NCBI GenBank assembly: GCA_000002445.1
Contig: CM000208.1
Location: 1,344,001 to 1,408,000 of the forward strand
Reading direction: 5' to 3'
Origin: Trypanosoma brucei
Taxonomy: Eukaryota
DNA: 64,000 nt
Shown: positions 2,058 through 60,482 of the stretch, in pieces
Layout of the letters: the number at the start of each line of letters is the position of its first letter
How positions within the stretch are numbered: position 1 is the first letter of the stretch
Made by a program: the position numbers and the translations under genes
The notes under the pieces: generated by a model
What the model saw: only the letters and a program-made list of their open reading frames with translations
What the model was told of the DNA's origin: nothing
The model's database searches: none

Positions 2058-3451
2058 AAACATTCGTCGAAACGCCATGTACCTGAGAGGAGGTCATTAT
2101 TTCCTGTTTTTGTTGTGTGTCTGTGTAAACCTGTTTATGTGTTTAGTTGTCTTTTTTGTTGTTGGTTGACTTGAACATTTAGATGCAGGACAGTTCCGTC
2201 TACTTATTTTTCTTACCCACCTCCCCTTTTTTATCTTTTTTTCTCCTTCGTTAACTTTTCAAACCCACTTTATGTACACAGTATTCTATAGAGAAATAAG
2301 GGGGGGGAAGAGACCGTTTTTCTTTGATGACTCGGGACTTTCCAGTGGGTGGATGTACACGTTCGATACGCCATGAGTATGTATTTCTCTACACCCATAT
2401 ACATCTCGTACTAACTTTCTTTTATTTCTGAACCTCGCACTTCAAGACTCGTACTTGTATTTTCCCCGTTCACCATATTTCATTTCCTCTCTTCCTCCAT
2501 CTTTTTGTTCCTTCGGATAATATACGTTACATATAGCGTCCTTATATTCAGCAAGGGGGGAAAATGACAGAAACAGCAACAGTTCGATGATTTGGGTGGC
2601 AATTCGACTACCTCATTGCGACCTATGGTGAGGTTATTGTTTTTTTTGTACGTGTGGGAGGGGAATTCGCTACTACTTTCTGTGGGGGGATTGACTCGCT
2701 GCAATTTCCTCTTGTGAACATATGAGTCGCGTGTCTTGCGTTACCATGATCGGACAGAGTGATGGTGAAGGGCATATGCTTTTGTTATGCAATATGTGTG
2801 CTGGTGAAGTAATTATTCCGTGTGTGTGTTTGTGTGTGATCTACCTTCTCATTGGTATCATATATGTGATGCTGTGGTGTGTAACGTGCTCGAGTGGATG
2901 TATGAATAAAATGAGACTACGACAGAATATTTCATTTCTTCGTTTTCTAATGCTCTTGTCCTACACAACTCCTCAATGTAGTCAAGTGACAAATCTATTA
3001 ATGTGTCCCCACCTGTTGTTTCCGATCCTTACGGCCATTTCCCGTCAACAACACGCGCTGCATGTAAATATGCAGAGATTCGTACAACTCTGTAGTTTGT
3101 GGAATAGCGCAAGTTGTTTTAGAGGTTGAATGAACCCGGGTTGAGTTGCATAGAGCTACGATTACAATGGAGGTACAAGCTATCAACACGGATTGAAGGA
3201 GAGGTATAACTAATGCAGGTATACGAGTATTTAAATAGTGTATATTACCTCTTCCCTTTGAGGGCAAATATATTCTTAACTTTATAACAAAGAATAGGTG
3301 TACAACGTTAATGTATACAATACTTCTGGTTTGCTGTTTTAAAAATTATTGTCTTTGTTCCTTTTTCGTACAAATTACTGTTACGACTTCACTTCCCCTT
3401 CCTGTTGGTCTTCTTCATTTATGCCTGACCACCGGACAGCGCATCAGTAAC

Positions 3452-3970
3452 ATGACCACATACGTCCCAAAGAGCTCGCGCGATGATGTATACCGCTTCT
3501 TCTTCACGGAGGGCGTTGTTTCCTGCAAGAAGGACCCCCTCGGCACGTGGAAGGGAACTCTTGGTGGCAAGACGTTCAAGCTTCCCACTCTACAGGTAAT
3601 GCAACTGATGCGTTCCCTGAAGAGCCGTGGCCTCATTAAGGAGCAATTCGCCTGGCGCCACTTCTACTGGACTCTAAATGATGAAGGCATCAACTACATG
3701 CGGAAATACCTCTATCTGGGAGCAGATGCTGTGCCGAACACTCACAAGGTGGATCACAAGACCTTTGAACGCGAAGGCGGACGCGGGCGTGGGCGCGGTG
3801 ATGGCCGTGGCCGTGGGCGCGGGTTCGGACGTGGCCGTGGCGAGGGCCGTGGCTTCGGACGTGGACGCGGTGAAGGCCGTGGCCGTGGTTTCCATAGTGA
3901 GCGCGACCAGTACCGCGCCGGTGCTGCTGCCCAAGGCGAGGATGCCGCGCCCGTTGCTGCGGTTGAGTAG
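3452..3970 (+). CDS. RPS10: 40S ribosomal protein S10 (eS10), copy 1, with a C-terminal RG/RGG-repeat tail
   Basis: 172 aa starting MTTYVPKSSRDDVYRFF, with the eS10 (Plectin/S10) domain (DPLG.WKG, NYMRKYL). The supplied ORF begins further upstream, and I moved the start to the first ATG that gives the conserved eS10 N-terminus. It is 100% identical in nucleotide sequence to copy 2. Confidence 0.9.
   Translation: MTTYVPKSSRDDVYRFFFTEGVVSCKKDPLGTWKGTLGGKTFKLPTLQVMQLMRSLKSRGLIKEQFAWRHFYWTLNDEGINYMRKYLYLGADAVPNTHKVDHKTFEREGGRGRGRGDGRGRGRGFGRGRGEGRGFGRGRGEGRGRGFHSERDQYRAGAAAQGEDAAPVAAVE
3776..3892 (+). repeat. GC-rich tandem repeat coding the RG/RGG box of RPS10 (the 30-nt unit FGRGRGEGRG occurs twice, plus RGRG runs)
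   Basis: ggccgtggc / ggacgtgg periodicity is visible in the nucleotide sequence, and the protein reads GGRGRGRGDGRGRGRGFGRGRGEGRGFGRGRGEGRGRGF. The same repeat recurs at 5211..5327 in copy 2. Confidence 0.8.
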
Positions 3971-29724: not shown

Positions 29725-30102
29725 ATGCGGACGATTGACTGCGAGTTCTCGCACTTCGCTGTACATCCGGGCCATGGCCGCCGCTACGTCCCGTTTGCCT
29801 TCTTATCAACGAAGCCTGTGCTGACATTTGCGCGCCCGAAGTGTTTCGCGATGTACATGCGCAAAAAGAACCCACGCTTTATTGCCTGGACCCGCACGTA
29901 CCGCCGCATTCATCGGAAGACGACGACCGACCGCGTGGGCCGCCGCCGTGCCGCCCGCACAGTGAGGACAGAGCGCGCCATCGTCGGTGCTGAGCTCTCC
30001 TACATTCAAGAAGTGCGAGCAAAGGCGAAGAAGGTTGACCGTACCGCCAAGGGCAAAGCCGTGCGTGAGGAGATGGCTGCTCGTAAGGCAGCGAAGAAAT
30101 AG
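29725..30102 (+). CDS. RPL24: 60S ribosomal protein L24 (eL24), copy 1
   Basis: 125 aa starting MRTIDCEFSHFAVHPGHGRRY. The eL24 / TRASH-type signature is present (C.F....I.PGHG; KKNPRFIAWTRTYRRIHRK compared with human KRNPRQINWTVLYRRKHKK). The ORF track begins upstream, and I moved the start to the eL24 N-terminal ATG. Confidence 0.85.
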   Translation: MRTIDCEFSHFAVHPGHGRRYVPFAFLSTKPVLTFARPKCFAMYMRKKNPRFIAWTRTYRRIHRKTTTDRVGRRRAARTVRTERAIVGAELSYIQEVRAKAKKVDRTAKGKAVREEMAARKAAKK

Positions 30103-30428: not shown

Positions 30429-31865
30429 ATGATATCTTACAAGCGGCGAAACATGTTCCTTGCAGATGGTAGACGAGTTTTGGTTGGAAACTTTATTATG
30501 TCCATTTCCACTATAATAGTTACCTTTTATCTCACGCAGGGGCACTTACAGGTGGGTCAGTGGCGCCTCCTGGATGACATCTCTCCGCGGTTGTCAGAGG
30601 CTGCGCGGAAGATTGGAATGCTTGAGGTTGAGTTGCCATATCCTTTCAACCACGTTAGCGCCGTTGTCGCCAGTCCAACAGGTATAGCAGACGCTGGTCA
30701 TAAGGTTATGCGTTTTTTTGGTACAAATTTGCGTTCCAACATCATAACGGAAAAAGTGAATGGGGAAGCAGCAAACTTGCTTGCTACTGGTTTTAGCAGT
30801 GAAAGTACAATATTGGCTCACCTGCTGTCGCCTAAGGCTGATGGACCCCTCGGAATAATGGGAATACTTCATCTGTGCTCGGCCACCAGCTGCATGGCCC
30901 CTTATTTCACACAACAATATGCAACTGTAACGGTACGGCCTTCAGGAAATTATCGCCTATTCGTAGGTGCACTTGTTTACGGAGACGTCTTCTTGGGTTC
31001 GGTCGTTGAGAATGACCTTGCCGCTCTTGATGTTGTGCTGCCTCGTGCCTCCAGGGGGAGGGAAGCAACAGGAGCTATGCCACTCCACGGCGTTGTTGGC
31101 GGGAGCTATGCGGGGAAGAGCGTGACTGTTAAGTGTTCGGTCTCAATCAATAGTTGTCAGTATGAGTTTCGAGACGATGACACTGACGCATCACATCCTT
31201 CAGTCACCGTCGTTCACCTGGATGACGTAAAGTTGGGCGAGGCCGAGCTCCCTGTGATGGGGTTTCGTGTGGTTCACATTGATCTTAATTCTGAAGAACA
31301 ACTTGCGATCGTGACTTATCTCACGGGTTTGTTGCACGTGTCCGCGAGGCCTGAGCATATCATTGTTACGCTCTACCCCTCACCCTTTCTCGAAGAGACT
31401 ATAACGGCTGTGGACGTTTTGAGAGTAAGTGTGCCTTACAATGTTTTTATCGAGGGCGGCAGGTGCAGGTTAACGACAAATTCATCAACTGTGCCCTCCG
31501 CTGAAGTTCTGCGCCTCGTTTTGCGTCGGGCAGGTACCTCAGCGTCATCTGCCCTCAACACTCGGAGCTACGCGGCCGAACCATTATGTGTCCTAGTACT
31601 GTCAAAGTCAATCACGTCGTTGTCACAACTGTTGGAGCATGTTGCACCGACCAAGCAGGAAGACGTTATGAAAACATTCCTGGGTACAAGCTTGGATCAG
31701 GGCAGTCACAGAGGAGTACCATGCAGAGGGAAACACAGCAAACCAAATGCTTTCAAATGGATCTTGCTAATAACAGTGCCGCTGCTGGTTGCTGGACTGC
31801 TCGCTTGCGGCATGCTTTATGGGAGAAGGCGTGTGCCGTTGTTGTGGGAGGACAAAAGACCATAA
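30429..31865 (+). CDS. Hypothetical type-I-like membrane protein (N-terminal signal-anchor, about 400-aa lumenal/extracellular domain, one C-terminal TM, short basic tail)
   Basis: N-terminal hydrophobic segment FIMSISTIIVTFYLTQ. C-terminal TM WILLITVPLLVAGLLACGMLYG followed by RRRVPLLWEDKRP. It lies between the two RPL24 copies. Confidence 0.5.
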   Translation: MISYKRRNMFLADGRRVLVGNFIMSISTIIVTFYLTQGHLQVGQWRLLDDISPRLSEAARKIGMLEVELPYPFNHVSAVVASPTGIADAGHKVMRFFGTNLRSNIITEKVNGEAANLLATGFSSESTILAHLLSPKADGPLGIMGILHLCSATSCMAPYFTQQYATVTVRPSGNYRLFVGALVYGDVFLGSVVENDLAALDVVLPRASRGREATGAMPLHGVVGGSYAGKSVTVKCSVSINSCQYEFRDDDTDASHPSVTVVHLDDVKLGEAELPVMGFRVVHIDLNSEEQLAIVTYLTGLLHVSARPEHIIVTLYPSPFLEETITAVDVLRVSVPYNVFIEGGRCRLTTNSSTVPSAEVLRLVLRRAGTSASSALNTRSYAAEPLCVLVLSKSITSLSQLLEHVAPTKQEDVMKTFLGTSLDQGSHRGVPCRGKHSKPNAFKWILLITVPLLVAGLLACGMLYGRRRVPLLWEDKRP

Positions 31866-32612: not shown

Positions 32613-32990
32613 ATGCGGACGATTGACTGCGAGTTCTCGCACTTCGCTGTACATCCGGGCCATGGCCGCCGCTACGTCCCGTTTGCCTTCTTATCAACGA
32701 AGCCTGTGCTGACATTTGCGCGCCCGAAGTGTTTCGCGATGTACATGCGCAAAAAGAACCCACGCTTTATTGCCTGGACCCGCACGTACCGCCGCATTCA
32801 TCGGAAGACGACGACCGACCGCGTGGGCCGCCGCCGTGCCGCCCGCACAGTGAGGGCAGAGCGCGCCATCGTCGGTGCTGAGCTCTCCTACATTCAAGAA
32901 GTGCGAGCAAAGGCGAAGAAGGTTGACCGTACCGCCAAGGGCAAAGCCGTGCGTGAGGAGATGGCTGCTCGTAAGGCAGCGAAGAAATAG
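32613..32990 (+). CDS. RPL24: 60S ribosomal protein L24 (eL24), copy 2
   Basis: The coding sequence is identical to copy 1 except for one nucleotide (G at 32856 versus A at 29968), which changes Thr82 to Ala82. The flanks are unrelated to those of copy 1. Confidence 0.85.
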   Translation: MRTIDCEFSHFAVHPGHGRRYVPFAFLSTKPVLTFARPKCFAMYMRKKNPRFIAWTRTYRRIHRKTTTDRVGRRRAARTVRAERAIVGAELSYIQEVRAKAKKVDRTAKGKAVREEMAARKAAKK

Positions 32991-33431
32991 AGGCGCGCAG
33001 GATTCGTTTCTCACTACTCCAATTCCTTCAATGAGATTTGTCTTTGTTAGTTTTTAGTTAGTGCTTTCCACGCCAACACCAATAGCGCTTTCTCATGTTC
33101 ACTGTTGTGAGGTGTGAACTGCTCAGCAGAGGCGAAGGCCATCGATTACCTTGTGTAGTATTTGCGTTTTATCTGCCTGATTGCGCCCTTGTTTATAGCT
33201 GCTGACACTATATGCTGCTTTTCCTTAATTTTTGTAGTCTTTTTTTTTTGAAGTGGTTCCCTTGTTTCGCTGTCCAATTTGTGCCATCGTTTTACCGTTT
33301 ATTATCGGCCTTTGGGGAAAATCGGCCTGTGCGGCTGGGAAGAAGGACCTTAAAAAAAAACGAATTGGCCAGGGAAAGAAAACAAACAGAAAAAGAAATC
33401 GAAGATTACTGTCGGAGATTATCGCAACTAC

Positions 33432-34703
33432 ATGACATCCACCGCGACGGAGGTTACTCAGACCCAAAGTCTTGCAGCCGTACGAAACTTTATTCGTGTG
33501 GCCGTTTCGTGCGTCACTTACCTTCGTGGATTGTGCAGTGATGAATCGTATCAACCCCGTCAGTTTCTTGGACTGCAGCTGAAGCAGCTTGTTCGCTCAT
33601 CTGGAGATGCCGGTGCCATTTCACGCTGGATGGAAGAGGGTGCTTTCGACGCGCTCAACAGGGGTTACCTTAAGGAACTCTCACTTTGTGTTCACGAACC
33701 AAACTGCACTGAGTTACTTGAGAGATACTCGTTTATGGTGTCATACAGCCCCGGCGGCCAGCGGGCCGCACTCTCGCTTACAGGTGAATCGATGAAGGAA
33801 AACCTCAGTTGCTCCTTTGGCACAGTGGGAGGAGGAGGAGGAGGAGATAAAATGGGTAAAGTATTGAGAAAACGTCGCTGCCGTCAGGAGGTACAGCAAG
33901 CGCTGGCAAGTATCATCACCAAACTCATGGAGGTTGTGGAGGGACTTCCACCGTTACTGTGCGAGCGTGTCCTCACCATGCAACTCAAATACTACGAGGA
34001 TGTAACACCTCCCTCTTATGAACCCCCTTGCTTTGCCCCTGCCAGTCCCAGCACTGTTGCGGCTCATTACAGAGAAGAAAAGAACAGCACCGATATCGCC
34101 ACACTCGACACGGGTCACCACACGCTCTCTATTAACATTCGACACAAATTCTTCGAACAACTGCGGCCACACAATTTGTCGCAAATGAACATGTACGATG
34201 CGAGCTCCTCGTCGGCGCGAAGGGACCCGACGAAGGGAGGCAAGGATGACGCTGCAGCTTATGGTTGTAGGAACGAGAGAGGTACCACAGAAAATCGCAC
34301 CAGTAGGGGGATTACCAACGACTGGGCCCATGCAGATGAAGTTGCGTTCCTTGTCTTCACAAGTTTTATATTAACAAAGTCTCCCACGGTATCCCGTGGC
34401 CGTATAACCATGGGTGAAATAGAAGAGTACCTTCGTGTCGCTTGTCCCATGGAAATTGAGATGAAACAGGTTCAATCAATGATGCGGCGACTTGAAACTA
34501 GCGGTATCGTTTCGTTAGAAGCACCGCTTGAATGGGCTGTGAGTGAGCAACGTTCTGCAGCGGTAGTAAGTGCAATACTTGAACGACAAGATGTAGTCTC
34601 TCTGCTCAGCGTTCAAACACGCATGGATTTGCGATATCTCACCACTGGACGGAAGGTATCCCGTCTTAGCTCTTCTAAAGGGCGTAAGCGAGTTCGTGCA
34701 TAG
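33432..34703 (+). CDS. HOP1: HORMA-domain protein, meiotic HOP1-like
   Basis: The N-terminal roughly 200 aa has the HORMA pattern (SLAAVRNFIRVAVSCVTYLRGLCSDESY..., then the safety-belt region). The C-terminal part is divergent and includes a poly-Gly segment (GGGGGGGD). In my recollection the T. brucei meiotic HOP1 lies in this chromosome neighbourhood. Confidence 0.65.
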   Translation: MTSTATEVTQTQSLAAVRNFIRVAVSCVTYLRGLCSDESYQPRQFLGLQLKQLVRSSGDAGAISRWMEEGAFDALNRGYLKELSLCVHEPNCTELLERYSFMVSYSPGGQRAALSLTGESMKENLSCSFGTVGGGGGGDKMGKVLRKRRCRQEVQQALASIITKLMEVVEGLPPLLCERVLTMQLKYYEDVTPPSYEPPCFAPASPSTVAAHYREEKNSTDIATLDTGHHTLSINIRHKFFEQLRPHNLSQMNMYDASSSSARRDPTKGGKDDAAAYGCRNERGTTENRTSRGITNDWAHADEVAFLVFTSFILTKSPTVSRGRITMGEIEEYLRVACPMEIEMKQVQSMMRRLETSGIVSLEAPLEWAVSEQRSAAVVSAILERQDVVSLLSVQTRMDLRYLTTGRKVSRLSSSKGRKRVRA

Positions 34704-35187
34704 TACCTGACAAATAACATTCGTCACATCTATGATTTTACTTTTCTTATTTCCCCTCTGTGTTGCTGTTAGGACGTTATTTATTCTCACCCTTTGTATC
34801 ACAGGTGCGTAAATGCACGTCCGAAGGTGTTTTTTTTTTAATCATCACATACAGTTTTAATTATTTACTTTCTTTTCCCTCGCGAAACTTATTGGAGTGA
34901 CGTACGATCTTTCTGGGATGTATGCTTTTTGGCTTCTCTAGGGTGTAACCCACAAAAAGTGCACCGTTGATTATTTTTTTTTCTTGTTTCCTCCATTTCC
35001 CACATTACTTTTTTTAATGTCACTAAATACATTGACAGATATTAAATTCAACCGTCTTTCCTTTGAATTATTGTTTGACTCCCGTAAATTGTCTCTCTGG
35101 CACGTTGACATAAACGATTAAAATCATCAGAAACAAAAGGACCATTGCTTTCTTCGCTATTTTCCTCAAGTCCTTTCAGCGGGTTAA

Positions 35188-36228
35188 ATGCGGTCGGTAG
35201 GTGGTGCCGTTGGTGCTACATGCTGCTTAGTTCCGTCTGTGGGTACCCAAAGGCGTCAGTATCATGCTTTTCAGTTCGCAGGGTTCCATGGGTGGAAGAT
35301 ACCATACGAGGGTAAAACGAAAGTGACGAAAGAGGAGCTAGACAACATTCGTTTCTTCACGCAGCGGTCCAAGGATAAATGGGACTACCACCGAGTCGAT
35401 GAAAACATTAACTCGAGTTCGGAGTTCCGCAAAACACATGACAGACCAGAGTTTGAACAGGGTATGCGTGAAGACAACTCAACGACCGATCACGGAGACT
35501 TACACACGCCCAAAAAGTACCGTCTGTATGAACACTTTGATGAGTATACAAAACCTGGGGTGAACAAAAAGGTTGCTGCTTGCTATGCCGTGAAAGAGCA
35601 GTGGGATGCTGAGGAGTTTTATTACCCTGGCGAGGCATGGAAGAAGAACCGACCCGGTTTCCGGAGTGTACCTAAGGAACTCTTGAACCGTCAAACGTGG
35701 TATCATTGGTCCGACACTATCATGAAGTGGGATGAGATTCAACCCACTATACGAACCCGTTCCTGGAACCCTGACTGGCCACCTCCTGGATATAAAGTGC
35801 CATCAATGCATTGCAAGAAGGAGTTTGTATTTGGTGTGGAGGATCCTGCTGTTGTGTCCGAAGTAGAGCGCTACAATTGGTATCGATCTTGGAGTGATAG
35901 TAATCTACGTTGTGGTTGGAAGGACATATGGTTGTTCGGTGTGCTGTTCGGAGCTATGTATTATATGGCCCGTAACGCGCTCGACATCGTTAGCATGCGT
36001 GCCATGATGAGCAACATGTTTTACCCGGGCCGCCAGTTTATCCGCTCTTTTGGCACACCGAGGGATTGGGAAACTGATGTTTTTTGGTGGCAACGCCCAC
36101 TTGAGGAATTTCCCAATCAGGGCGAAGTGTGGTACATTAATGAAAGCCGTTACAAGTACATTAACTATATAAAAAAACGTGACGCGATGGAACGGGCCTT
36201 AGCGGAAGCAGAAATGAATGCAGTTTAG
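35188..36228 (+). CDS. Hypothetical protein, 346 aa, with a presequence-like N-terminus and one predicted TM helix (possibly mitochondrial)
   Basis: N-terminus MRSVGGAVGATCCLVPSVGTQRRQY. TM helix IWLFGVLFGAMYYMARNALDIV. It is rich in W/Y. Confidence 0.5.
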   Translation: MRSVGGAVGATCCLVPSVGTQRRQYHAFQFAGFHGWKIPYEGKTKVTKEELDNIRFFTQRSKDKWDYHRVDENINSSSEFRKTHDRPEFEQGMREDNSTTDHGDLHTPKKYRLYEHFDEYTKPGVNKKVAACYAVKEQWDAEEFYYPGEAWKKNRPGFRSVPKELLNRQTWYHWSDTIMKWDEIQPTIRTRSWNPDWPPPGYKVPSMHCKKEFVFGVEDPAVVSEVERYNWYRSWSDSNLRCGWKDIWLFGVLFGAMYYMARNALDIVSMRAMMSNMFYPGRQFIRSFGTPRDWETDVFWWQRPLEEFPNQGEVWYINESRYKYINYIKKRDAMERALAEAEMNAV

Positions 36229-37261
36229 ATGTTTTTGTTAGTAGGGCTGGCGAGTGACTGGTTTTCCCTACCTTACCTCAGTAAATACCCTGAAGAGAGA
36301 GAGCAAGAGGTTAGGCGAGTGGAGTAGTATGATATGGGGAGCTTAACGAAGGGTGATTATTTTACTATTATCATTGTCTGGAGAGGGGAAAAGCGGGACG
36401 CTGTACTTAACAGTGGACAGAACAGTGAAGTAGGAACATGTAGTGTAGCAGTCGTAGAATATTGAGGAGTAAGGTAATATAGTTCGGTACTGAGAAATGG
36501 AGGGAAACGGTCTCCCTTTCAAACACTTTCTTTTTTTACTTCTTCCTTGCGGTTCCGGCTCATTGAAACGTGTTCAATATGATTTGCGTAGGCGAATTAT
36601 GTGCATCTTTGTGCCGCTGTGTTCGCGTGTGGGTAGTACTTGGAAGGACGCCGTGCTGCAGTGCATCATCAGAAGTTTTGTTCACTGTCATCCCCTTCTA
36701 CTTTCTTTTTGTCATTCTCAGCGCCGAGCTTCAACCGGGAAGAGGCGTTGTGGGGCGGTGACGTATAACATTATCGTTTAGTGAGTTCCTTTTTTGGTTG
36801 TTTGCTAGTTGGAACCGAGCACTGTGGTAGTTGAGAGGTGTGATGATTACTGGAGGAACAATTGATGAGGTGTATCCGGTGCCTTAAATTCGGTGGTCTC
36901 GCATTTATGCGATAGTGTCATTCTGATATGATCGCACACCTCCACTGTTTCAGTGGTGGCACTTGACAACTTCAGCACATACCTTCAAACTTTCTTCGCT
37001 TCATACCGGAGCGAAGCTAAACCACAAACATTGGCGTTTCACCTTCTTCGTACTACACGTTGGAAGGGCTCAACGCTTCGTGTTGCCAATTCTTGAGGAT
37101 TTTGTTTCCCCTCCCGCACGATTTCCTTGCGCTGTCTAGTTCATCAAAACTCTTATTTTATTTTATTTCTTGCATGGTTGTTGCCCTTCTGTCTTGTCCA
37201 TTCCCATTCAGTAGTGTTGTAGTTTTTGTAACTCTGTGGGTGAAAGAAGGGGGGGGAGCAT

Positions 37262-37300
37262 CACACCAAAACCCTCCTCTCTCTTTCTCTCTTTGCTCAG
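37262..37300 (+). promoter_or_regulatory. Polypyrimidine tract plus AG: candidate spliced-leader trans-splice acceptor for the inositol 5-phosphatase gene
   Basis: cacaccaaaaccctcctctctctttctctctttgctcag / gttgcagagg, with the ATG 18 nt downstream. This matches kinetoplastid trans-splicing signal architecture (established knowledge). Confidence 0.5.
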
Positions 37301-37317
37301 GTTGCAGAGGAGGTGGA

Positions 37318-39012
37318 ATGAGGGCTGCCGAGGGTGATCACGTGGCGGAAGGCGCTGAGAACACTACCGCCACATCGCCCGGTCCCGGTTCAGTGCGGGA
37401 ATCGAGCAAAAGCCCAAAGTCGCGGTCGAGATGTCATTCCCCTCGAAATGGAAGAAGGGGCGACAGGAGCAAGCGCGGTTCAGTACAACATACACCTCCT
37501 AGGAATTCGGTCCGTGATCCGAGTGCCATTCCTAAGCAGTTGGACATTGATGCCATGCAGGTTGCCATTGCCACTTCCCTACCGCGCCGGCTTGACCAGT
37601 TCTGTGATGAATTCCACAGTATTCCTTTCGTTATACGTAATGAAACCTTCCCCGTGCCGGATTCTTTGAAGCGTAACTCATGGATTCCTGGGGAGGTGCT
37701 GCGAGTGGCGTACATTACCTGGAACATGGCGCACGCAAAACCAGACTTTTACAGGGTGTCAAAATATTGCATTTGTCCCAACGCCCATCTTGTGGTTGTG
37801 TGCACGCAGGAAAACGGTTGTAACTGGTACGCCAAGAAAAAACAGCAGCGACAATGGAGAGATCATATCACGCAGGCTTGCCTCAAGAATTCGTATGAAC
37901 TAGTGGGGTGCAACTCACTCTGGTACATTCACATGCTGGTCTACGCTAGAAAGCACGATGTAGCCCCCCATGTGGGGCATGTGGAAAAAGCGAAAGTGCG
38001 AACCGGAATTGGCAATGGTTTAGGCGGAAACAAAGGTGGCGTGGGCATTGCCCTGTCCATTTCAACAGAATGTAGGTTTAATGCGTTGAGTGATCCTCGC
38101 GGCCATAGAAGGGGTGCGCGGGCATCAAAACAGCAGCGCCAAGACATTTCTTGCTCTCATATGAACCCAATAGAGTGCGGTGGTGGTGATGATTCTTTAC
38201 ACAGTGCATTACCTCAGCCAGCACGTTTCACGATCTTATTTGTTGGCGCTCATCTTGCTGCCCATCAGGATGCAGTTGGTCTACGAAATAGAGACTACCG
38301 GAACATTGTCAAGATGTTGCATGTGGGACTTCGTGGGAAGTTTAAAGAGTTTCACGCAAGCATCCGGAGGAGTAGAGCTCTCGCGTGCTGCCCTCTGGAC
38401 ACCGAAAGCGCAAGGGGGTTAAACATCACGGAAGATCAGGCCACGCGCCAAAATGCTGTTTGCTCCAATGGCGGCTGTAAAGCAATGAATGGCTCAGCTG
38501 CTGTGTCTAACGAACGTGATGAAGACGATGGAGGCCCAGTTGGTATAATGAAACTTCCTTTTTGTATGAAGAATCAACCGCAAGAAGAGCGTCGAGATGC
38601 GACGGATGAGTTTGACCTTGTCTTCTTTGGAGGTGACCTGAATTACCGTCTCGACGGTACATCAAAGGCGATCCGGGATATAATTGATAATAAGAAGAAT
38701 GTTCGATCCGTACTTTGTAACAACGACCAGCTCAATCGAGAAAGAGCGAAGGGTGAAGTATTTAGGGGGTTTAAGGAGGGCAATCTCTTCTTCCGCCCAA
38801 CTTACAAGTACGAGTTGAGGAGTAGAAATTACAGTACTACTGATAAGCGCATACCGGCCTACTGTGACCGCGTTTTGTTCAAGAAGCCAGCTCAATCGTG
38901 TGTTGGAAAGGTAAGAATACGACTCTACACAGACGTCCAGGCGGTGCAAACAAGTGATCATCGCCCGGTAGTTGCAATTTTTGACGTTGCAACAATTCCA
39001 AGCAACAAATAA
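37318..39012 (+). CDS. Inositol / phosphoinositide polyphosphate 5-phosphatase (endonuclease/exonuclease/phosphatase fold) with a Ser/Arg/Pro-rich N-terminal extension
   Basis: Catalytic 5-phosphatase motifs FFGGDLNYRL (about 38628..38657) and SDHRPVVAIFDV (about 38954..38989). The ORF track starts at 37060. I chose ATG 37318 (MRAAEGD), which is immediately preceded by a poly-Y tract and an AG at 37299..37300. Confidence 0.8.
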   Translation: MRAAEGDHVAEGAENTTATSPGPGSVRESSKSPKSRSRCHSPRNGRRGDRSKRGSVQHTPPRNSVRDPSAIPKQLDIDAMQVAIATSLPRRLDQFCDEFHSIPFVIRNETFPVPDSLKRNSWIPGEVLRVAYITWNMAHAKPDFYRVSKYCICPNAHLVVVCTQENGCNWYAKKKQQRQWRDHITQACLKNSYELVGCNSLWYIHMLVYARKHDVAPHVGHVEKAKVRTGIGNGLGGNKGGVGIALSISTECRFNALSDPRGHRRGARASKQQRQDISCSHMNPIECGGGDDSLHSALPQPARFTILFVGAHLAAHQDAVGLRNRDYRNIVKMLHVGLRGKFKEFHASIRRSRALACCPLDTESARGLNITEDQATRQNAVCSNGGCKAMNGSAAVSNERDEDDGGPVGIMKLPFCMKNQPQEERRDATDEFDLVFFGGDLNYRLDGTSKAIRDIIDNKKNVRSVLCNNDQLNRERAKGEVFRGFKEGNLFFRPTYKYELRSRNYSTTDKRIPAYCDRVLFKKPAQSCVGKVRIRLYTDVQAVQTSDHRPVVAIFDVATIPSNK

Positions 39013-39785
39013 TTAAGCTGAGACCGTGTGAATTTCGAGAGATGTGGCCTATTGCGAACATTTCTGCTTTTCTTTTCCACCATTTGAATTCGCTCTTTTA
39101 TTCCAATACTGTTCCTTCCCACCACGAATCCCTTCTGCATCGGTTTCACTATTTTTTTTCTTCCTGCCTCTTGAGCCCTTTGTTTTGTCCCCCTATTTTT
39201 GTAGCCTAGCTGTCGACCCATTTAGCAAACGCTTTTTCGTTGTCTGCATCTCTCTGTGTATGAGTGATTTCACTTTTCTGAGTTATTTTTCGTAAGCTTC
39301 GAATTATTGTAACGGCTTTAGTCGAGCAGTTCCCTTTGCATCATTTATCCTTTTTTTCCTTCTAGATGTATAAATGTATTTGTGACCTTTCATTTACTTT
39401 CCGTTCTGCTGCTCCTTTTCGTAGTGTTTTCCCCTCCTCCAGTTCTTTTCGGTGGTGTCGATCTTTCGATTTACCAAATTCTACCTTTGTATTTTTCATT
39501 TTTGTTTTGCTTATTCCTCACAGCCACGATTGAGCCGTTTTCTATTTATGAGTGCGTGCTATTTTGCGGCAATTACGAAACTCCATGTTACAATATTTCC
39601 AACAAACTTTTTCATTTTTGTTTTTGTCATTTTTCCTCCTTCGTGTTTCTGCATCTTTTTTTTTTGGTAAATTTTTTTCCAATTACGATGTGGAAATGAC
39701 GATTGGGGGAAGGTGTGCCTCCCTCCCCCCAAGCTGCAAAGCGAAAAAAAGGTTATGAAAAAACATATTTGATTATTTCCCCCTG

Positions 39786-39813
39786 CTCTCTCTCTCTCTC
39801 TTTTTTTTTTTTG
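39786..39813. repeat. (CT)8 followed by a T13 homopolymer within a 1.8-kb intergenic spacer
   Basis: ctctctctctctctctttttttttttttt. Confidence 0.8.
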
Positions 39814-40854
39814 CCTCCTTTTCGAAACAAAATTTGTTGTTTTTTTTTTTTGTAAAAAAGAATGGTAGAAAAAAGGGTTGTTGTGGAGCACCAAAAGGAA
39901 AGGATGTTGAGTTTGAGGAGGGGAAAAGTTTACTTTCACGTGTAGTTTGTTGATATTGCGCAGCTTCTTTCCTTTTTTCTCTACTGTTGTTTCCATTAAT
40001 TTTTTTTTTGCTTTTCGGTCTTTGTGCCTTCTGTTATAGTTGTGGAAATGGCGTGCGGTGGTGTGGGCTTCAAGGAGCGGCGTAAAATGAGGGGAAGCGA
40101 CCAATATAATAACGGGTTTAATGACGAATATTACAACGTAAAGTACGAAAGGAAAAAAAGATTGTGCGGGATGGTCGCTGAACAAACAAAGAGGGAGAAT
40201 AACGGAGAGAAAAATTTGGCATACATGCATATAAATTCTCTCGCGTGTATGTATTCATTTCATGCATATGTTCTGATTTGTTGTTATTTTTGTTTGTTGC
40301 GGAGGCGGTGAGTAAAATGTTAGGAGTCTCACAAATTTTAACGAAAAAAAAAACAAGTCATATTATGTTATGTTATGTGGCGTGATGTGAAGTAAACATT
40401 AGAGCATCGGCATCCCTCACCTTTTTTCTTCGCCAGTTTATCTTTCATCCCCATCTTTTCCTGCTCATCTCTCCTCAATACTATCTTTTCTATTCTATTT
40501 TTTAACTGATTTGCCTTCTCCATTGCAGTGGTTCGCAAAATACTTTTTTTTTTTTAAATACCTCTAGAGCACGCGTTAACACCCTCGTGTCAACTAAAAG
40601 AAGATTGAAGCGGTGCCTTTGCTCCCTTTCCGGTTTCTTTCGCTGCGCGCTGAACCTCCCAACTGGCGCTGTGACAAAATTCAGGCTGCTCGTGTTTGCT
40701 TGTGTCCCGTGGGTTCGTTTGGGAAAATAATAAACAAAACTAAACAAGGACGGCACCGAAACCCAAAAGGTTGCGAGTGGGGAGCAGTGACGTACCACAA
40801 AAGAAACAACGCCACTGTCTGGTGGATCAAGAAGGAATAAACATCAAGAAAGGC

Positions 40855-59363: not shown

Positions 59364-60482
59364 ATGTCCAAGCGTGTTGAAGTTCTGCTTACCCAACTCC
59401 CTGCGTACAACCGCCTGAAGACGCCATATGAAGCGGAACTGATTGAAACCGCCAAAAAGATGACCGCCCCCGGTAAGGGTCTCCTCGCCGCCGATGAGTC
59501 CACTGGTTCATGTTCGAAGCGCTTTGCGGGCATCGGTCTCAGCAACACTGCAGAGCACCGCCGTCAGTACCGCGCTCTCATGCTGGAATGCGAAGGTTTC
59601 GAGCAGTACATCAGCGGTGTCATCCTGCACGATGAGACCGTGTATCAGAAAGCTAAGACCGGCGAAACATTCCCTCAGTACCTCCGTCGTCGTGGTGTGG
59701 TGCCTGGCATCAAAACCGATTGCGGTCTCGAGCCCCTCGTGGAGGGCGCCAAGGGCGAGCAGATGACTGCTGGTCTCGACGGTTACATCAAACGGGCCAA
59801 GAAATACTACGCTATGGGCTGCCGCTTCTGCAAGTGGCGCAACGTGTACAAGATCCAGAACGGCACCGTGTCTGAAGCTGTTGTTCGTTTCAACGCTGAA
59901 ACACTCGCTCGCTACGCTATCCTCTCCCAACTCTGCGGTCTTGTCCCTATTGTGGAGCCTGAGGTGATGATCGATGGCACTCACGACATTGAGACTTGCC
60001 AACGCGTTTCGCAGCATGTGTGGTCGGAGGTGGTTTCTGCACTCCACCGCCACGGCGTTGTATGGGAGGGATGCCTGCTGAAGCCCAACATGGTCGTCCC
60101 TGGCGCTGAATCCGGCCTCAAGGCCACTGCGGAGCAGGTTGCCGAGTACACCGTCAAAACCCTCGCCCGTGTTATTCCCCCTGCGCTCCCCGGCGTGACG
60201 TTCCTATCAGGTGGCCTCAGTGAGGTTATGGCCTCCGAGTACCTCAACGCTATGAACAACTGCCCGTTACCACGCCCATGGAAACTGACCTTTTCATACG
60301 CCCGTGCACTTCAGTCCAGCGCCATAAAGGCGTGGGGTGGAAAGGAATCTGGTGTCGAAGCTGGCCGCCGTGCGTTCATGCACCGCGCAAAGATGAACTC
60401 ACTTGCCCAACTCGGCAAGTACAACCGTGCTGATGACGACAAGGACTCGCAGTCTCTGTACGTTGCTGGCAACACATACTAA
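59364..60482 (+). CDS. ALD: Fructose-1,6-bisphosphate aldolase, class I, glycosomal (N-terminal PTS2)
   Basis: 372 aa. The class I aldolase core is present ([19 protein letters not shown], the Schiff-base lysine region [11 protein letters not shown], and LSGG). The N-terminal nonapeptide RVEVLLTQL (59373..59399) fits the PTS2 consensus R[LVI]x5[HQ][LA]. From memory the protein matches the published T. brucei glycosomal aldolase. Confidence 0.95.

What the first reader, a model, noticed from the sequence alone, without database searches (positions are those of the whole stretch)
33432..34703. Meiotic HORMA-domain gene (HOP1-like) co-transcribed with ribosomal-protein genes
A HORMA domain is followed by a divergent tail. 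The gene sits in the same polycistron directly downstream of RPL24 and upstream of constitutive genes. HOP1 is one of the few meiosis-specific markers in trypanosomes, expressed in salivary-gland stages. Its stage restriction must therefore be entirely post-transcriptional, through its 3'UTR (34704 to about 35150) and the trans-splice site choice.
Basis: partly seen in the sequence, partly recalled or inferred. Interest (0 to 1): 0.5.

Follow-up and report, generated by a model that had tools for sequence, protein, structure and literature searches.

The report
Known trypanosome meiotic gene HOP1
This is the already well-studied Trypanosoma brucei meiosis gene HOP1 (Tb927.10.5490), sitting in an ordinary, anciently conserved gene array; the identification is right, but nothing here is new apart from a candidate for its still-unassigned C-terminal closure motif.

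Summary
The ORF at 33432..34703 (+, 423 aa) is real. It carries a full-length HORMA domain (Pfam E=1.3e-52). It is 100% identical to the T. brucei-group protein known as HOP1 (Tb927.10.5490, UniProt Q38B55).

The "divergent tail" is structured. It has a disordered linker (aa 251-296), a confident winged-helix domain (aa 295-405) and a basic C-terminal end. The winged helix was already published for this exact protein (Milano et al. 2024). That paper leaves the closure motif as "?". I find a conserved terminal [RK]-hydrophobic-Ser plus KRKR element that is a candidate.

RPL24 lies directly upstream, and the whole 64-kb window is one + strand array. The order RPL24-HOP1-346 aa-phosphatase is conserved in T. 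vivax and T. cruzi, and RPL24-HOP1 also in L. major.

Post-transcriptional control fits the literature: a modest mRNA rise in gamete and meiotic cells, and a polysome shift in procyclics. No 3'UTR element was detectable, and the 3'UTR probably ends near 34860-34915, not 35150. The trans-splice-choice idea has no support. Verdict: already known, low interest.

The parts
33432..34703 (+). HOP1 coding sequence (423 aa plus stop), Tb927.10.5490 / UniProt Q38B55
   Evidence: ORF. It is 100% identical to a T. brucei-group protein on a 4.05-Mb contig. The sequence matches the Q38B55 row in Table EV1 of PMC10907721. The gene ID comes from PMC8939820 and PMC8509897.
33468..34121 (+). HORMA domain (aa 13-230 by Pfam; the AF2 core spans aa 10-254)
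   Evidence: PF02301 E=1.3e-52, full profile. AF2 pLDDT is mostly above 90. The best Foldseek hit is HORMAD1 8j69, E=7.5e-13. BLASTP against human HORMAD1 gives 30% identity over 197 aa, E=1e-20.
33756..33860 (+). Disordered, variable loop inside the HORMA domain (aa 109-143). It contains a (GGA)6 repeat at 33828-33845 that encodes six glycines.
   Evidence: pLDDT below 50. The alignment columns are variable in length and sequence. The repeat was read directly in the sequence.
34182..34319 (+). Disordered linker (aa 251-296), highly variable in length between Trypanosoma and Leishmania
   Evidence: pLDDT below 50. Large indels in alignment A1.
34314..34646 (+). Winged helix-turn-helix domain (aa ~295-405), the chromatin-binding-region equivalent. 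It has a C338-P339 loop at the position of the type-2 'FP' motif.
34647..34700 (+). C-terminal end GRKVSRLSSSKGRKRVRA: [RK]-hydrophobic-Ser motifs (K408-V-S, R411-L-S) followed by a basic cluster (R418-K-R). It is a candidate closure motif and/or nuclear localisation signal.
   Evidence: [RK]-[MILVF]-S occurs in the last 30 aa of 18 of 28 orthologues, against 8% of background 30-aa windows, and 0 of 2000 shuffles reach 18. A basic cluster is present in 26 of 28 and persists in the more distant kinetoplastid hits. AF2 leaves aa 412-423 below pLDDT 50 and undocked. The closure motif is recorded as '?' in Table EV1 of PMC10907721.
33238..33253 (+). Predicted HOP1 trans-splice signal: polypyrimidine tract 33238-33249 and the first AG at 33252-33253. 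This gives a 5'UTR of about 178 nt (33254-33431) with no upstream ATG.
   Evidence: Pattern scan. The PPT+AG rule is from Kolev et al. 2010 (PMC2936537). This is an inference, not mapped experimentally here.
34704..34914 (+). Probable HOP1 3'UTR. Poly(A) addition is predicted around 34859-34914, that is 123-178 nt upstream of the next gene's likely splice acceptor at 35037.
   Evidence: The longest PPT is at 34974-35001, with the next AG at 35037. The median distance from poly(A) site to splice acceptor is 142 nt, IQR 123-178 (PMC2936537). This is an inference. If the proximal AG at ~35179 is used instead, the UTR would end near 35037.
32613..32990 (+). RPL24 (L24e) copy 2, the gene directly upstream of HOP1
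   Evidence: PF01246 E=3.9e-20. Its CDS is 99.74% identical to copy 1 at 29725-30102.
35188..36228 (+). Conserved 346-aa ORF directly downstream of HOP1, function unknown
   Evidence: No Pfam hit and no credible PDB hit. An ORF of similar size occupies the same position in T. vivax, T. cruzi and L. major; its homology across species was not checked.

Best explanation
The ORF is the Trypanosoma brucei meiotic chromosome-axis protein HOP1 (Tb927.10.5490). Shown here: it has an N-terminal HORMA domain of the Hop1/HORMAD clade, a disordered linker, one winged-helix domain and a short basic C-terminal end. Inferred from the family: the HORMA domain captures short closure motifs under its safety belt, either in an axis partner or in its own C-terminus. 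The winged helix contacts DNA or chromatin. The terminal [RK]-hydrophobic-Ser plus KRKR element serves as closure motif and/or nuclear localisation signal.

The gene is one unit of a long + strand array transcribed polycistronically. Its position behind RPL24 is inherited synteny that predates the Trypanosoma/Leishmania split, not a functional coupling. Because neighbours in such arrays share transcription, restriction of the protein to meiotic cells in the tsetse salivary gland has to be imposed after transcription. The published data point to modest mRNA enrichment plus translational repression outside meiosis. The responsible cis-element is unknown. The 3'UTR (about 34704-34900) is the most likely site, by analogy with other trypanosome genes.
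For: Identity: full HORMA match. The protein is 100% identical to the T. brucei-group protein and to Q38B55 as printed in PMC10907721 Table EV1. HOP1 is given as Tb927.10.5490 in PMC8939820 and PMC8509897.

Clade: phmmer and profile searches of all PDB sequences return only HORMAD1, HIM-3 and HTP-1/2. The Foldseek order is HORMAD1 (23% id), HTP/HIM-3 (20-22%), MAD2 (15%), REV7 (11-13%). BLASTP against HORMAD1 gives E=1e-20 and a shared YY[ED][DE]VTPP.Y.PP.F signature.

Context: all genes are on the + strand with no tRNA or Rfam hit. Synteny holds in T. vivax, T. cruzi and L. major. PPT/AG signals are present.

Expression and function from papers: YFP::HOP1 appears only in meiotic salivary-gland cells (PMC3928991, PMC6320599). 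mRNA log2FC is 0.80 in the gamete cluster (PMC8509897). The polysome shift is 35% to 75% without an abundance change (PMC5015846). Leishmania HOP1 is required for mating but not for growth (PMC10630298).
Against: No closure motif is demonstrated. AF2 did not dock the C-terminus onto the HORMA domain, and the published survey marks it '?'. No conserved, enriched or structured element was found in the downstream region, so the 3'UTR mechanism rests on analogy. Splice and poly(A) sites are predicted, not mapped. Continuous transcription across RPL24-HOP1 is inferred from strand and the absence of Pol III genes, not measured. DNA binding by the winged helix is untested in any kinetoplastid.
Confidence: 0.9

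Rival explanations
1. The HORMA protein belongs to another HORMA family (MAD2, REV7, p31comet, Atg13/101) and was mislabelled as HOP1.
For: By fold alone, MAD2 and REV7 structures also match with probability 1.0, as expected for any HORMA domain.
Against: No MAD2, REV7 or other non-meiotic HORMA sequence reaches E<=10 in phmmer or profile searches of all PDB sequences, while HORMAD1 reaches 1.1e-28. Identity is 23-30% to HORMAD1 against 11-16% to MAD2 and REV7. The wHTH after the HORMA domain is typical of meiotic HORMADs. Expression is meiosis-restricted (PMC3928991).
Confidence: 0.02
2. HOP1 in kinetoplastids has a second, non-meiotic job. It would be expressed at a low level throughout the life cycle, for example at the unconventional kinetochore whose KKT16-18 subunits descend from the SYCP2/3 axis proteins.
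For: HOP1 mRNA is present in cultured procyclics, and a third of it is on polysomes (PMC5015846). It is detected in 1.8% of non-gamete salivary-gland cells (PMC8509897). KKT16-18 are the only SYCP2/3 homologues in kinetoplastids (PMC8131943).
Against: YFP::HOP1 was seen only in meiotic dividers and 'nowhere else' (PMC6320599). KKT16-complex purifications from mitotic cells did not recover HOP1 (PMC8131943). Leishmania HOP1 null mutants grow normally but cannot mate (PMC10630298).
Confidence: 0.05
3. Stage restriction is set mainly at the 5' end, by alternative trans-splice site choice or 5'UTR elements, as the first reader also proposed.
For: Several AG dinucleotides follow the polypyrimidine tract (33252, 33341, 33344, 33371), so alternative acceptors are possible. 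Splice-site heterogeneity is common in T. brucei (PMC2936537).
Against: No ATG lies between the first predicted acceptor and the start codon, so there is no upstream ORF to switch. The upstream region does not align between species. N-terminal YFP tagging of the endogenous locus preserved meiosis-specific expression (PMC3928991). From my own memory of the tagging vectors, not checked here, such tagging replaces the native 5'UTR.
Confidence: 0.08
4. The decisive control is on the protein: HOP1 is translated at a low level everywhere but is degraded outside meiosis, or is stabilised only when bound to the meiotic axis.
For: mRNA enrichment in meiotic and gamete cells is small (log2FC 0.80), and 35% of the procyclic mRNA is polysomal, yet no YFP::HOP1 is seen there. 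In other eukaryotes HORMADs are actively removed by the remodelling ATPase Pch2/TRIP13 (PMC10907721).
Against: There is no direct evidence. The polysome shift on heat shock shows that translation itself is regulated. A 3'UTR alone confers sexual-stage expression for another gene of the same cell cluster, Tb927.10.12080 (PMC8939820).
Confidence: 0.15

Closest known systems
T. brucei HOP1, Tb927.10.5490 (old ID Tb10.70.1530; UniProt Q38B55)
   Same: It is the same gene: 423 aa, 100% identity in the database cluster, and the sequence matches the published table row. It is the published meiosis marker, visualised as YFP::HOP1 (PMC3928991).
   Different: Nothing differs. The window is simply the genomic locus of this gene.
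Mammalian HORMAD1/HORMAD2
   Same: The HORMA domain is of the same clade (30% identity, E=1e-20; best PDB hit by sequence and fold). The tail is disordered, and the extreme C-terminus is rich in basic residues next to a hydrophobic-Ser pair (vertebrate closure motif KRRKFSEPKEHI).
   Different: Mammalian HORMADs have lost the chromatin-binding region, while the trypanosome protein keeps a winged helix. The order of the basic cluster and the hydrophobic-Ser is reversed in most trypanosomatids. Binding to the HORMA domain is unproven.
Hop1/ASY1-type HORMADs with a chromatin-binding region (S. cerevisiae Hop1 PHD-wHTH-HTH-C; A. thaliana ASY1 with two wHTH; S. mansoni Hop1 CBR, PDB 9mug)
   Different: There is a single wHTH with no PHD finger and no HTH-C extension. 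The wHTH is not detectable by Pfam. Its sequence family is confined to 15 kinetoplastid-like proteins among 1.84 billion representatives. The generic winged-helix matches (APC2, cullin, Stn1, RPA32) score higher than the Hop1 CBR.
Leishmania HOP1 (LTRL590_360017200 / L. major Q4Q1W5)
   Same: It is the orthologue, with ~52% identity over the aligned part (58% of the query; 38-40% over the full-length alignment) and the same HORMA+wHTH layout. It sits in the same position behind RPL24. It is genetically required for mating (PMC10630298).
   Different: Leishmania proteins are ~130 aa longer because of linker and wing insertions. The tail is only ~25% identical.

Membership tests
Meiotic HORMAD (Hop1/HORMAD/ASY1/HIM-3) | N-terminal HORMA domain | tested here: met
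   PF02301 E=1.3e-52, aa 13-230, profile 1-209/209. The AF2 model is confident.
Meiotic HORMAD (Hop1/HORMAD/ASY1/HIM-3) | HORMA domain closer to meiotic HORMADs than to MAD2, REV7 or other HORMA families | tested here: met
   PDB sequence searches return only HORMAD1 (1.3e-16 single sequence, 1.1e-28 profile), HIM-3 and HTP-1/2. No MAD2 or REV7 appears at E<=10. The Foldseek order and identities agree. BLASTP against HORMAD1 gives E=1e-20. No full phylogeny was built.
Meiotic HORMAD (Hop1/HORMAD/ASY1/HIM-3) | Central chromatin-binding region (PHD and/or wHTH). It is common but not universal: found in 107 of 149 HORMADs. | tested here: met
Meiotic HORMAD (Hop1/HORMAD/ASY1/HIM-3) | C-terminal closure motif that binds the HORMA domain under the safety belt | tested here: inconclusive
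   A conserved terminal [RK]-hydrophobic-Ser (18 of 28) plus a basic cluster (26 of 28) is present. AF2 did not dock it (aa 412-423 below pLDDT 50), and the literature marks it '?'. The basic cluster could equally be a nuclear localisation signal.
Meiotic HORMAD (Hop1/HORMAD/ASY1/HIM-3) | Meiosis-specific expression and nuclear or axis localisation | not testable with these tools
   From the literature only: YFP::HOP1 is nuclear and restricted to meiotic dividers in tsetse salivary glands (PMC3928991, PMC6320599). mRNA is up in the gamete/meiotic scRNA-seq cluster (PMC8509897, PMC8939820).
Meiotic HORMAD (Hop1/HORMAD/ASY1/HIM-3) | Required for meiotic recombination or mating | not testable with these tools
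   Shown for the Leishmania tropica orthologue (PMC10630298). I found no T. brucei knockout in the papers searched.
MAD2 / REV7 HORMA proteins | Sequence similarity to MAD2 or REV7 above that to HORMADs; a single-domain protein of about 200 aa | tested here: not met
   No sequence hit at E<=10. Identity in structural alignments is 11-16%. The protein has an extra 190-aa tail with a wHTH.
Gene inside a kinetoplastid polycistronic transcription unit | Same-strand array with no strand switch or Pol III gene between neighbours, and PPT+AG processing signals in the intergenic regions | tested here: met
   All Pfam-supported ORFs across 64 kb are on the + strand. There are no tRNA or Rfam hits. PPT/AG signals lie up- and downstream of HOP1. 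Actual co-transcription and the absence of an internal start site cannot be tested with these tools.
3'UTR-controlled stage-specific trypanosome mRNA | A recognisable regulatory element in the 3'UTR (conserved block, known RBP motif or stable structure) | tested here: inconclusive
   No alignable block among T. brucei, T. vivax and T. cruzi. One UAUUUAU at 34778, and one UA(U)6 at 34972 inside the PPT, with no enrichment. Folding z=+0.68. Absence of a detectable motif does not exclude control through the 3'UTR.

The most novel reading that the evidence does not exclude
The conserved extreme C-terminus of kinetoplastid HOP1 would be the closure motif that the 2024 pan-eukaryote survey could not assign. 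In T. brucei it reads RKVSRLSSSKGRKRVRA; in most trypanosomatids it is R-[MILV]-S-[VITC] followed 2-6 residues later by KRKR. It would let HOP1 self-close and self-assemble. Matching motifs in the SYCP2-like kinetochore proteins KKT17/KKT18 would then recruit HOP1, which would tie the unconventional kinetoplastid kinetochore directly to the meiotic axis.
Probability: 0.25. Interest if true: 0.4.

Novelty: already known. Interest (0 to 1): 0.15.

Why it matters
HOP1 is one of the few molecular handles on meiosis in trypanosomes, so recognising it from raw sequence is a correct call. But the gene, its stage-specific expression, its domain layout including the winged helix, and the need for post-transcriptional control in polycistronic arrays are all published. 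What remains open and testable is narrow. First, which sequence is the closure motif, and what does the HORMA domain bind in an organism whose only SYCP2/3 homologues are kinetochore proteins? Second, which cis-element and RNA-binding protein keep HOP1 mRNA untranslated outside meiosis?

Tried and rejected
(1) MAD2/REV7 identity: rejected, with no sequence hit at E<=10.

(2) Pfam on the tail, for 19 orthologues: no family; only scattered sub-threshold winged-helix models.

(4) Closure motif by structure prediction: full-length AF2 left the C-terminus undocked.

(5) Phylogenetic footprinting of the downstream and upstream intergenic regions across T. brucei, T. vivax and T. cruzi: only T-rich tracts align.

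(6) Known RNA motifs (RBP10 UA(U)6, ARE, PUF, ZC3H11 UAU repeats): no enrichment.

(7) RNA structure of 34704-34960: z=+0.68, ordinary.

(8) Rfam and tRNA scans of the whole window: nothing.

(9) Mapped splice and poly(A) sites: the gene ID is absent from the held supplementary text of Kolev 2010 and Nilsson 2010. The original Peacock 2011 paper is not held.

(10) The afdb50 fold library was unavailable.

(11) Neighbouring 346-aa and 478-aa ORFs: no Pfam hit and no credible PDB match.

(12) I considered that RPL24 adjacency means co-regulation. I rejected it, because the same order is found in T. vivax, T. cruzi and L. major, which is ordinary conserved synteny.
Full report
OBSERVATION

An ATG-to-stop ORF lies exactly at 33432..34703 on the + strand and encodes 423 aa. 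Pfam's HORMA model (PF02301) matches residues 13-230 over its entire length (1-209 of 209), with E=1.3e-52 and 178.7 bits against a cut-off of 24. The N-terminus MTSTxxxVxQxQSLAA is conserved in all orthologues, so the start codon is right. The ORF immediately upstream (32613..32990, +) is ribosomal protein L24e (E=3.9e-20).

ORGANISM AND GENE

The protein is 100% identical to a database cluster named from Trypanosoma equiperdum that sits on a 4.05-Mb contig. Orthologues at 53-58% identity exist in T. cruzi, T. vivax, T. theileri, T. grayi, T. rangeli and T. conorhini. Orthologues at 38-42% full-length identity exist in Leishmania, Leptomonas, Angomonas and others.

Two single-cell RNA-seq papers give HOP1 as Tb927.10.5490 (PMC8939820; PMC8509897). 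An earlier paper gives the old ID Tb10.70.1530 (PMC3928991). The sequence printed for T. brucei Q38B55 (423 aa) in Table EV1 of Milano et al. 2024 is this protein. The rest of the window fits T. brucei chromosome 10: dynein heavy chain, RPS10, IFT122, a C1a-32/CLAMP protein, Memo, an ALG9-like mannosyltransferase, PP2C and class-I aldolase.

HOP1 OR ANOTHER HORMA FAMILY?

I ran three checks.

- A phmmer search of every PDB sequence returns HORMAD1 (1.3e-16) and HIM-3 (4e-5 to 5e-4), with no MAD2 or REV7 at E<=10.
- A profile of 28 trypanosomatid orthologues sharpens this: HORMAD1 1.1e-28, HIM-3 4e-7, HTP-2 0.32, HTP-1 1.2. Again no MAD2 or REV7 appears.
- The AlphaFold2 model (mean pLDDT 77, HORMA core mostly above 90) matches every HORMA structure by fold, as it must. 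The order is HORMAD1 first (E=7.5e-13, 23% identity), then HTP-1/2 and HIM-3 (19-22%), MAD2 (14-17%) and REV7 (11-14%).

BLASTP against human HORMAD1 gives 30% identity over 197 residues, E=1e-20, with a shared YY[ED][DE]VTPP.Y.PP.F stretch. The refutation test therefore fails to refute. I did not build a full phylogeny.

THE TAIL

Alignment shows three parts:

- a linker that varies greatly in length and sequence, about aa 245-300;
- a block conserved across all trypanosomatids, with R322, G323, Y333, P339, L354, W368 and L400 invariant in the 15-sequence alignment (G323, W368 and L400 also in all 28 sequences of A2);
- a short basic end.

AlphaFold2 predicts aa 251-296 as disordered. It predicts aa 295-405 as a confident domain with helix-strand-helix-helix-strand-strand topology followed by three helices. 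A tail-only model reproduces this with pLDDT 84.5 and pTM 0.74 in all five models.

A profile of the tail finds only 16 proteins among 1.84 billion representatives. Fifteen of them are HORMA+wHTH proteins and one is a spurious bacterial repeat protein. So the domain is a narrow sequence family with a common fold.

This is not new. Milano et al. 2024 (PMC10907721, Fig. [quoted passage not shown] The C338-P339 loop between the second and third helix sits where that paper describes the type-2 'FP' motif. That positional match is my reading of the alignment and the model.

CLOSURE MOTIF

In the same published table the closure-motif column reads '?' for both T. brucei and L. major. Vertebrate closure motifs in that table are KRRKFSEPKEHI and KKRKVSEP.

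The T. brucei protein ends in TTGRKVSRLSSSKGRKRVRA. Across 28 orthologues, [RK]-[MILVF]-S occurs within the last 30 residues in 18. The background rate is 8% of 30-aa windows elsewhere in these proteins. Shuffled tails give a mean of 3.2 and a maximum of 9, and 0 of 2000 shuffles reach 18. A basic cluster is present in 26 of 28. The orthologues are related, so this measures conservation, not independent recurrence.

In more distant kinetoplastid-like sequences the basic cluster persists, while the R-hydrophobic-S part is less regular. AlphaFold2 did not dock the terminus onto the HORMA domain (aa 412-423 below pLDDT 50). The element is therefore a candidate closure motif. It could equally be a plain nuclear localisation signal, and the matter stays inconclusive.

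GENOMIC CONTEXT

All ORFs with Pfam support across the 64 kb are on the + strand. There is no tRNA gene and no Rfam match. This fits one uninterrupted polycistronic unit. An internal transcription start cannot be excluded from sequence alone.

RPL24 is present twice (29725..30102 and 32613..32990). Only the coding sequence is duplicated: 384 nt at 99.74% identity, with unrelated flanks.

The order RPL24 / ~450-aa ORF / RPL24 / HOP1 / ~346-aa ORF / inositol-5-phosphatase-like / Memo is the same in T. vivax and T. cruzi. L. major keeps RPL24 / HOP1 / 363-aa ORF. So the adjacency to RPL24 is old synteny and carries no implication of shared regulation.

PROCESSING SIGNALS

Upstream of HOP1, a polypyrimidine tract at 33238-33249 is followed by AG at 33252. 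This predicts a 5'UTR of about 178 nt with no upstream ATG.

Downstream, the longest tract is 34974-35001, with the next AG at 35037. In T. brucei the poly(A) site lies a median 142 nt (interquartile range 123-178) upstream of the next splice acceptor (PMC2936537). That puts the end of the HOP1 3'UTR near 34859-34914, a UTR of roughly 155-210 nt. If the proximal AG at about 35179 were used, the UTR would end near 35037. These are predictions. The held supplementary text of two transcriptome papers does not list the gene.

REGULATION

Published data support control after transcription.

- YFP::HOP1, tagged at the N-terminus in the endogenous locus, is seen only in meiotic cells of the salivary gland in several T. 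brucei subspecies (PMC3928991; PMC6320599).
- At the RNA level the rise is small: log2 fold-change 0.80, detected in 7.5% of gamete-cluster cells against 1.8% of others (PMC8509897). PMC8939820 reports 'some signal'.
- In cultured procyclics the mRNA is present. It moves from 35% to 75% polysomal after one hour at 39 C with no change in abundance (PMC5015846). This points to translational repression as a major layer.

I looked for a cis-element and found none that stands out.

- The downstream regions of T. brucei, T. vivax and T. cruzi align only in T-rich tracts, and the same holds upstream.
- Known motifs are not enriched. There is one UAUUUAU at 34778, and one UA(U)6 at 34972 that lies inside the polypyrimidine tract.
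- The region folds no better than shuffles (z=+0.68).

The 3'UTR remains the likeliest site by analogy. A 3'UTR alone confers sexual-stage expression on Tb927.10.12080 (PMC8939820). But that is inference. Nothing supports trans-splice site choice. Control through protein stability is not excluded.

VERDICT

The specifics are either inaccurate or unsupported: the tail, the 3'UTR extent, the trans-splice choice, and the word 'entirely'. The gene, its expression, its domain layout and the functional requirement for its Leishmania orthologue (PMC10630298) are all published.

The one small open point that this analysis sharpens is a conserved C-terminal element that could be the unassigned closure motif. 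Its natural candidate partners are the SYCP2-like kinetochore proteins KKT17/18 (PMC8131943). Novelty: already known. Interest: low.

Noticed in passing
window 29725-30102 and 32613-32990: RPL24 is duplicated, but only the coding sequence (384 nt, 99.74% identical, one amino-acid difference). The flanks are unrelated, and a 478-aa ORF lies between the copies. T. vivax and T. cruzi have the same split arrangement. An old duplication has therefore been kept nearly identical, which suggests gene conversion limited to the CDS.
   Followed up: partly
window 33828-33845: A (GGA)6 microsatellite inside the HOP1 CDS encodes six consecutive glycines (G133-G138). It lies in the disordered loop of the HORMA domain, and the run is absent from the other species in the alignment.
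   Followed up: partly
window 35188-36228: A 346-aa ORF lies directly downstream of HOP1. An ORF of similar size (346-363 aa) sits in the same position in T. vivax, T. cruzi and L. major. It has no Pfam family and no credible match to any solved structure, and it has a hydrophobic stretch near residue 250. Its function is unknown.
   Followed up: partly
window 30429-31865: A 478-aa ORF lies between the two RPL24 copies, with no Pfam or PDB match and a hydrophobic, transmembrane-like segment near the C-terminus. ORFs of similar size occupy the same position in T. vivax (444 aa) and T. cruzi (458 aa).
   Followed up: partly
window 39013-40770: An unusually long gap of 1.76 kb separates the 5-phosphatase-like gene and Memo. 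Its GC content is lower (about 0.43-0.45). It holds only a - strand 223-aa ORF (39559-40230) with no Pfam hit. It is probably a long UTR rather than a gene.
   Followed up: no
window 37060-39012: The mechanical ORF for the Exo_endo_phos2 (inositol polyphosphate 5-phosphatase-like) gene starts at a TTG and gives 650 aa. The gene call in T. equiperdum is 564 aa, so the real start is an internal ATG further downstream.
   Followed up: no
window 59364-60482 and 3311-3970: Class-I fructose-bisphosphate aldolase and ribosomal protein S10 lie in the same + strand array as HOP1. From my own knowledge, not tested here, aldolase mRNA is strongly stage-regulated. If so, genes with very different expression share this array.
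   Followed up: no
P0038 (hit of the tail-profile search): The only non-HORMA hit of the tail profile is a 915-aa bacterial protein. It has many SHOCT-like repeats and a TrbI conjugation domain. The match (E=1.6e-5, five short stretches) looks like a repeat-driven artefact.
   Followed up: partly
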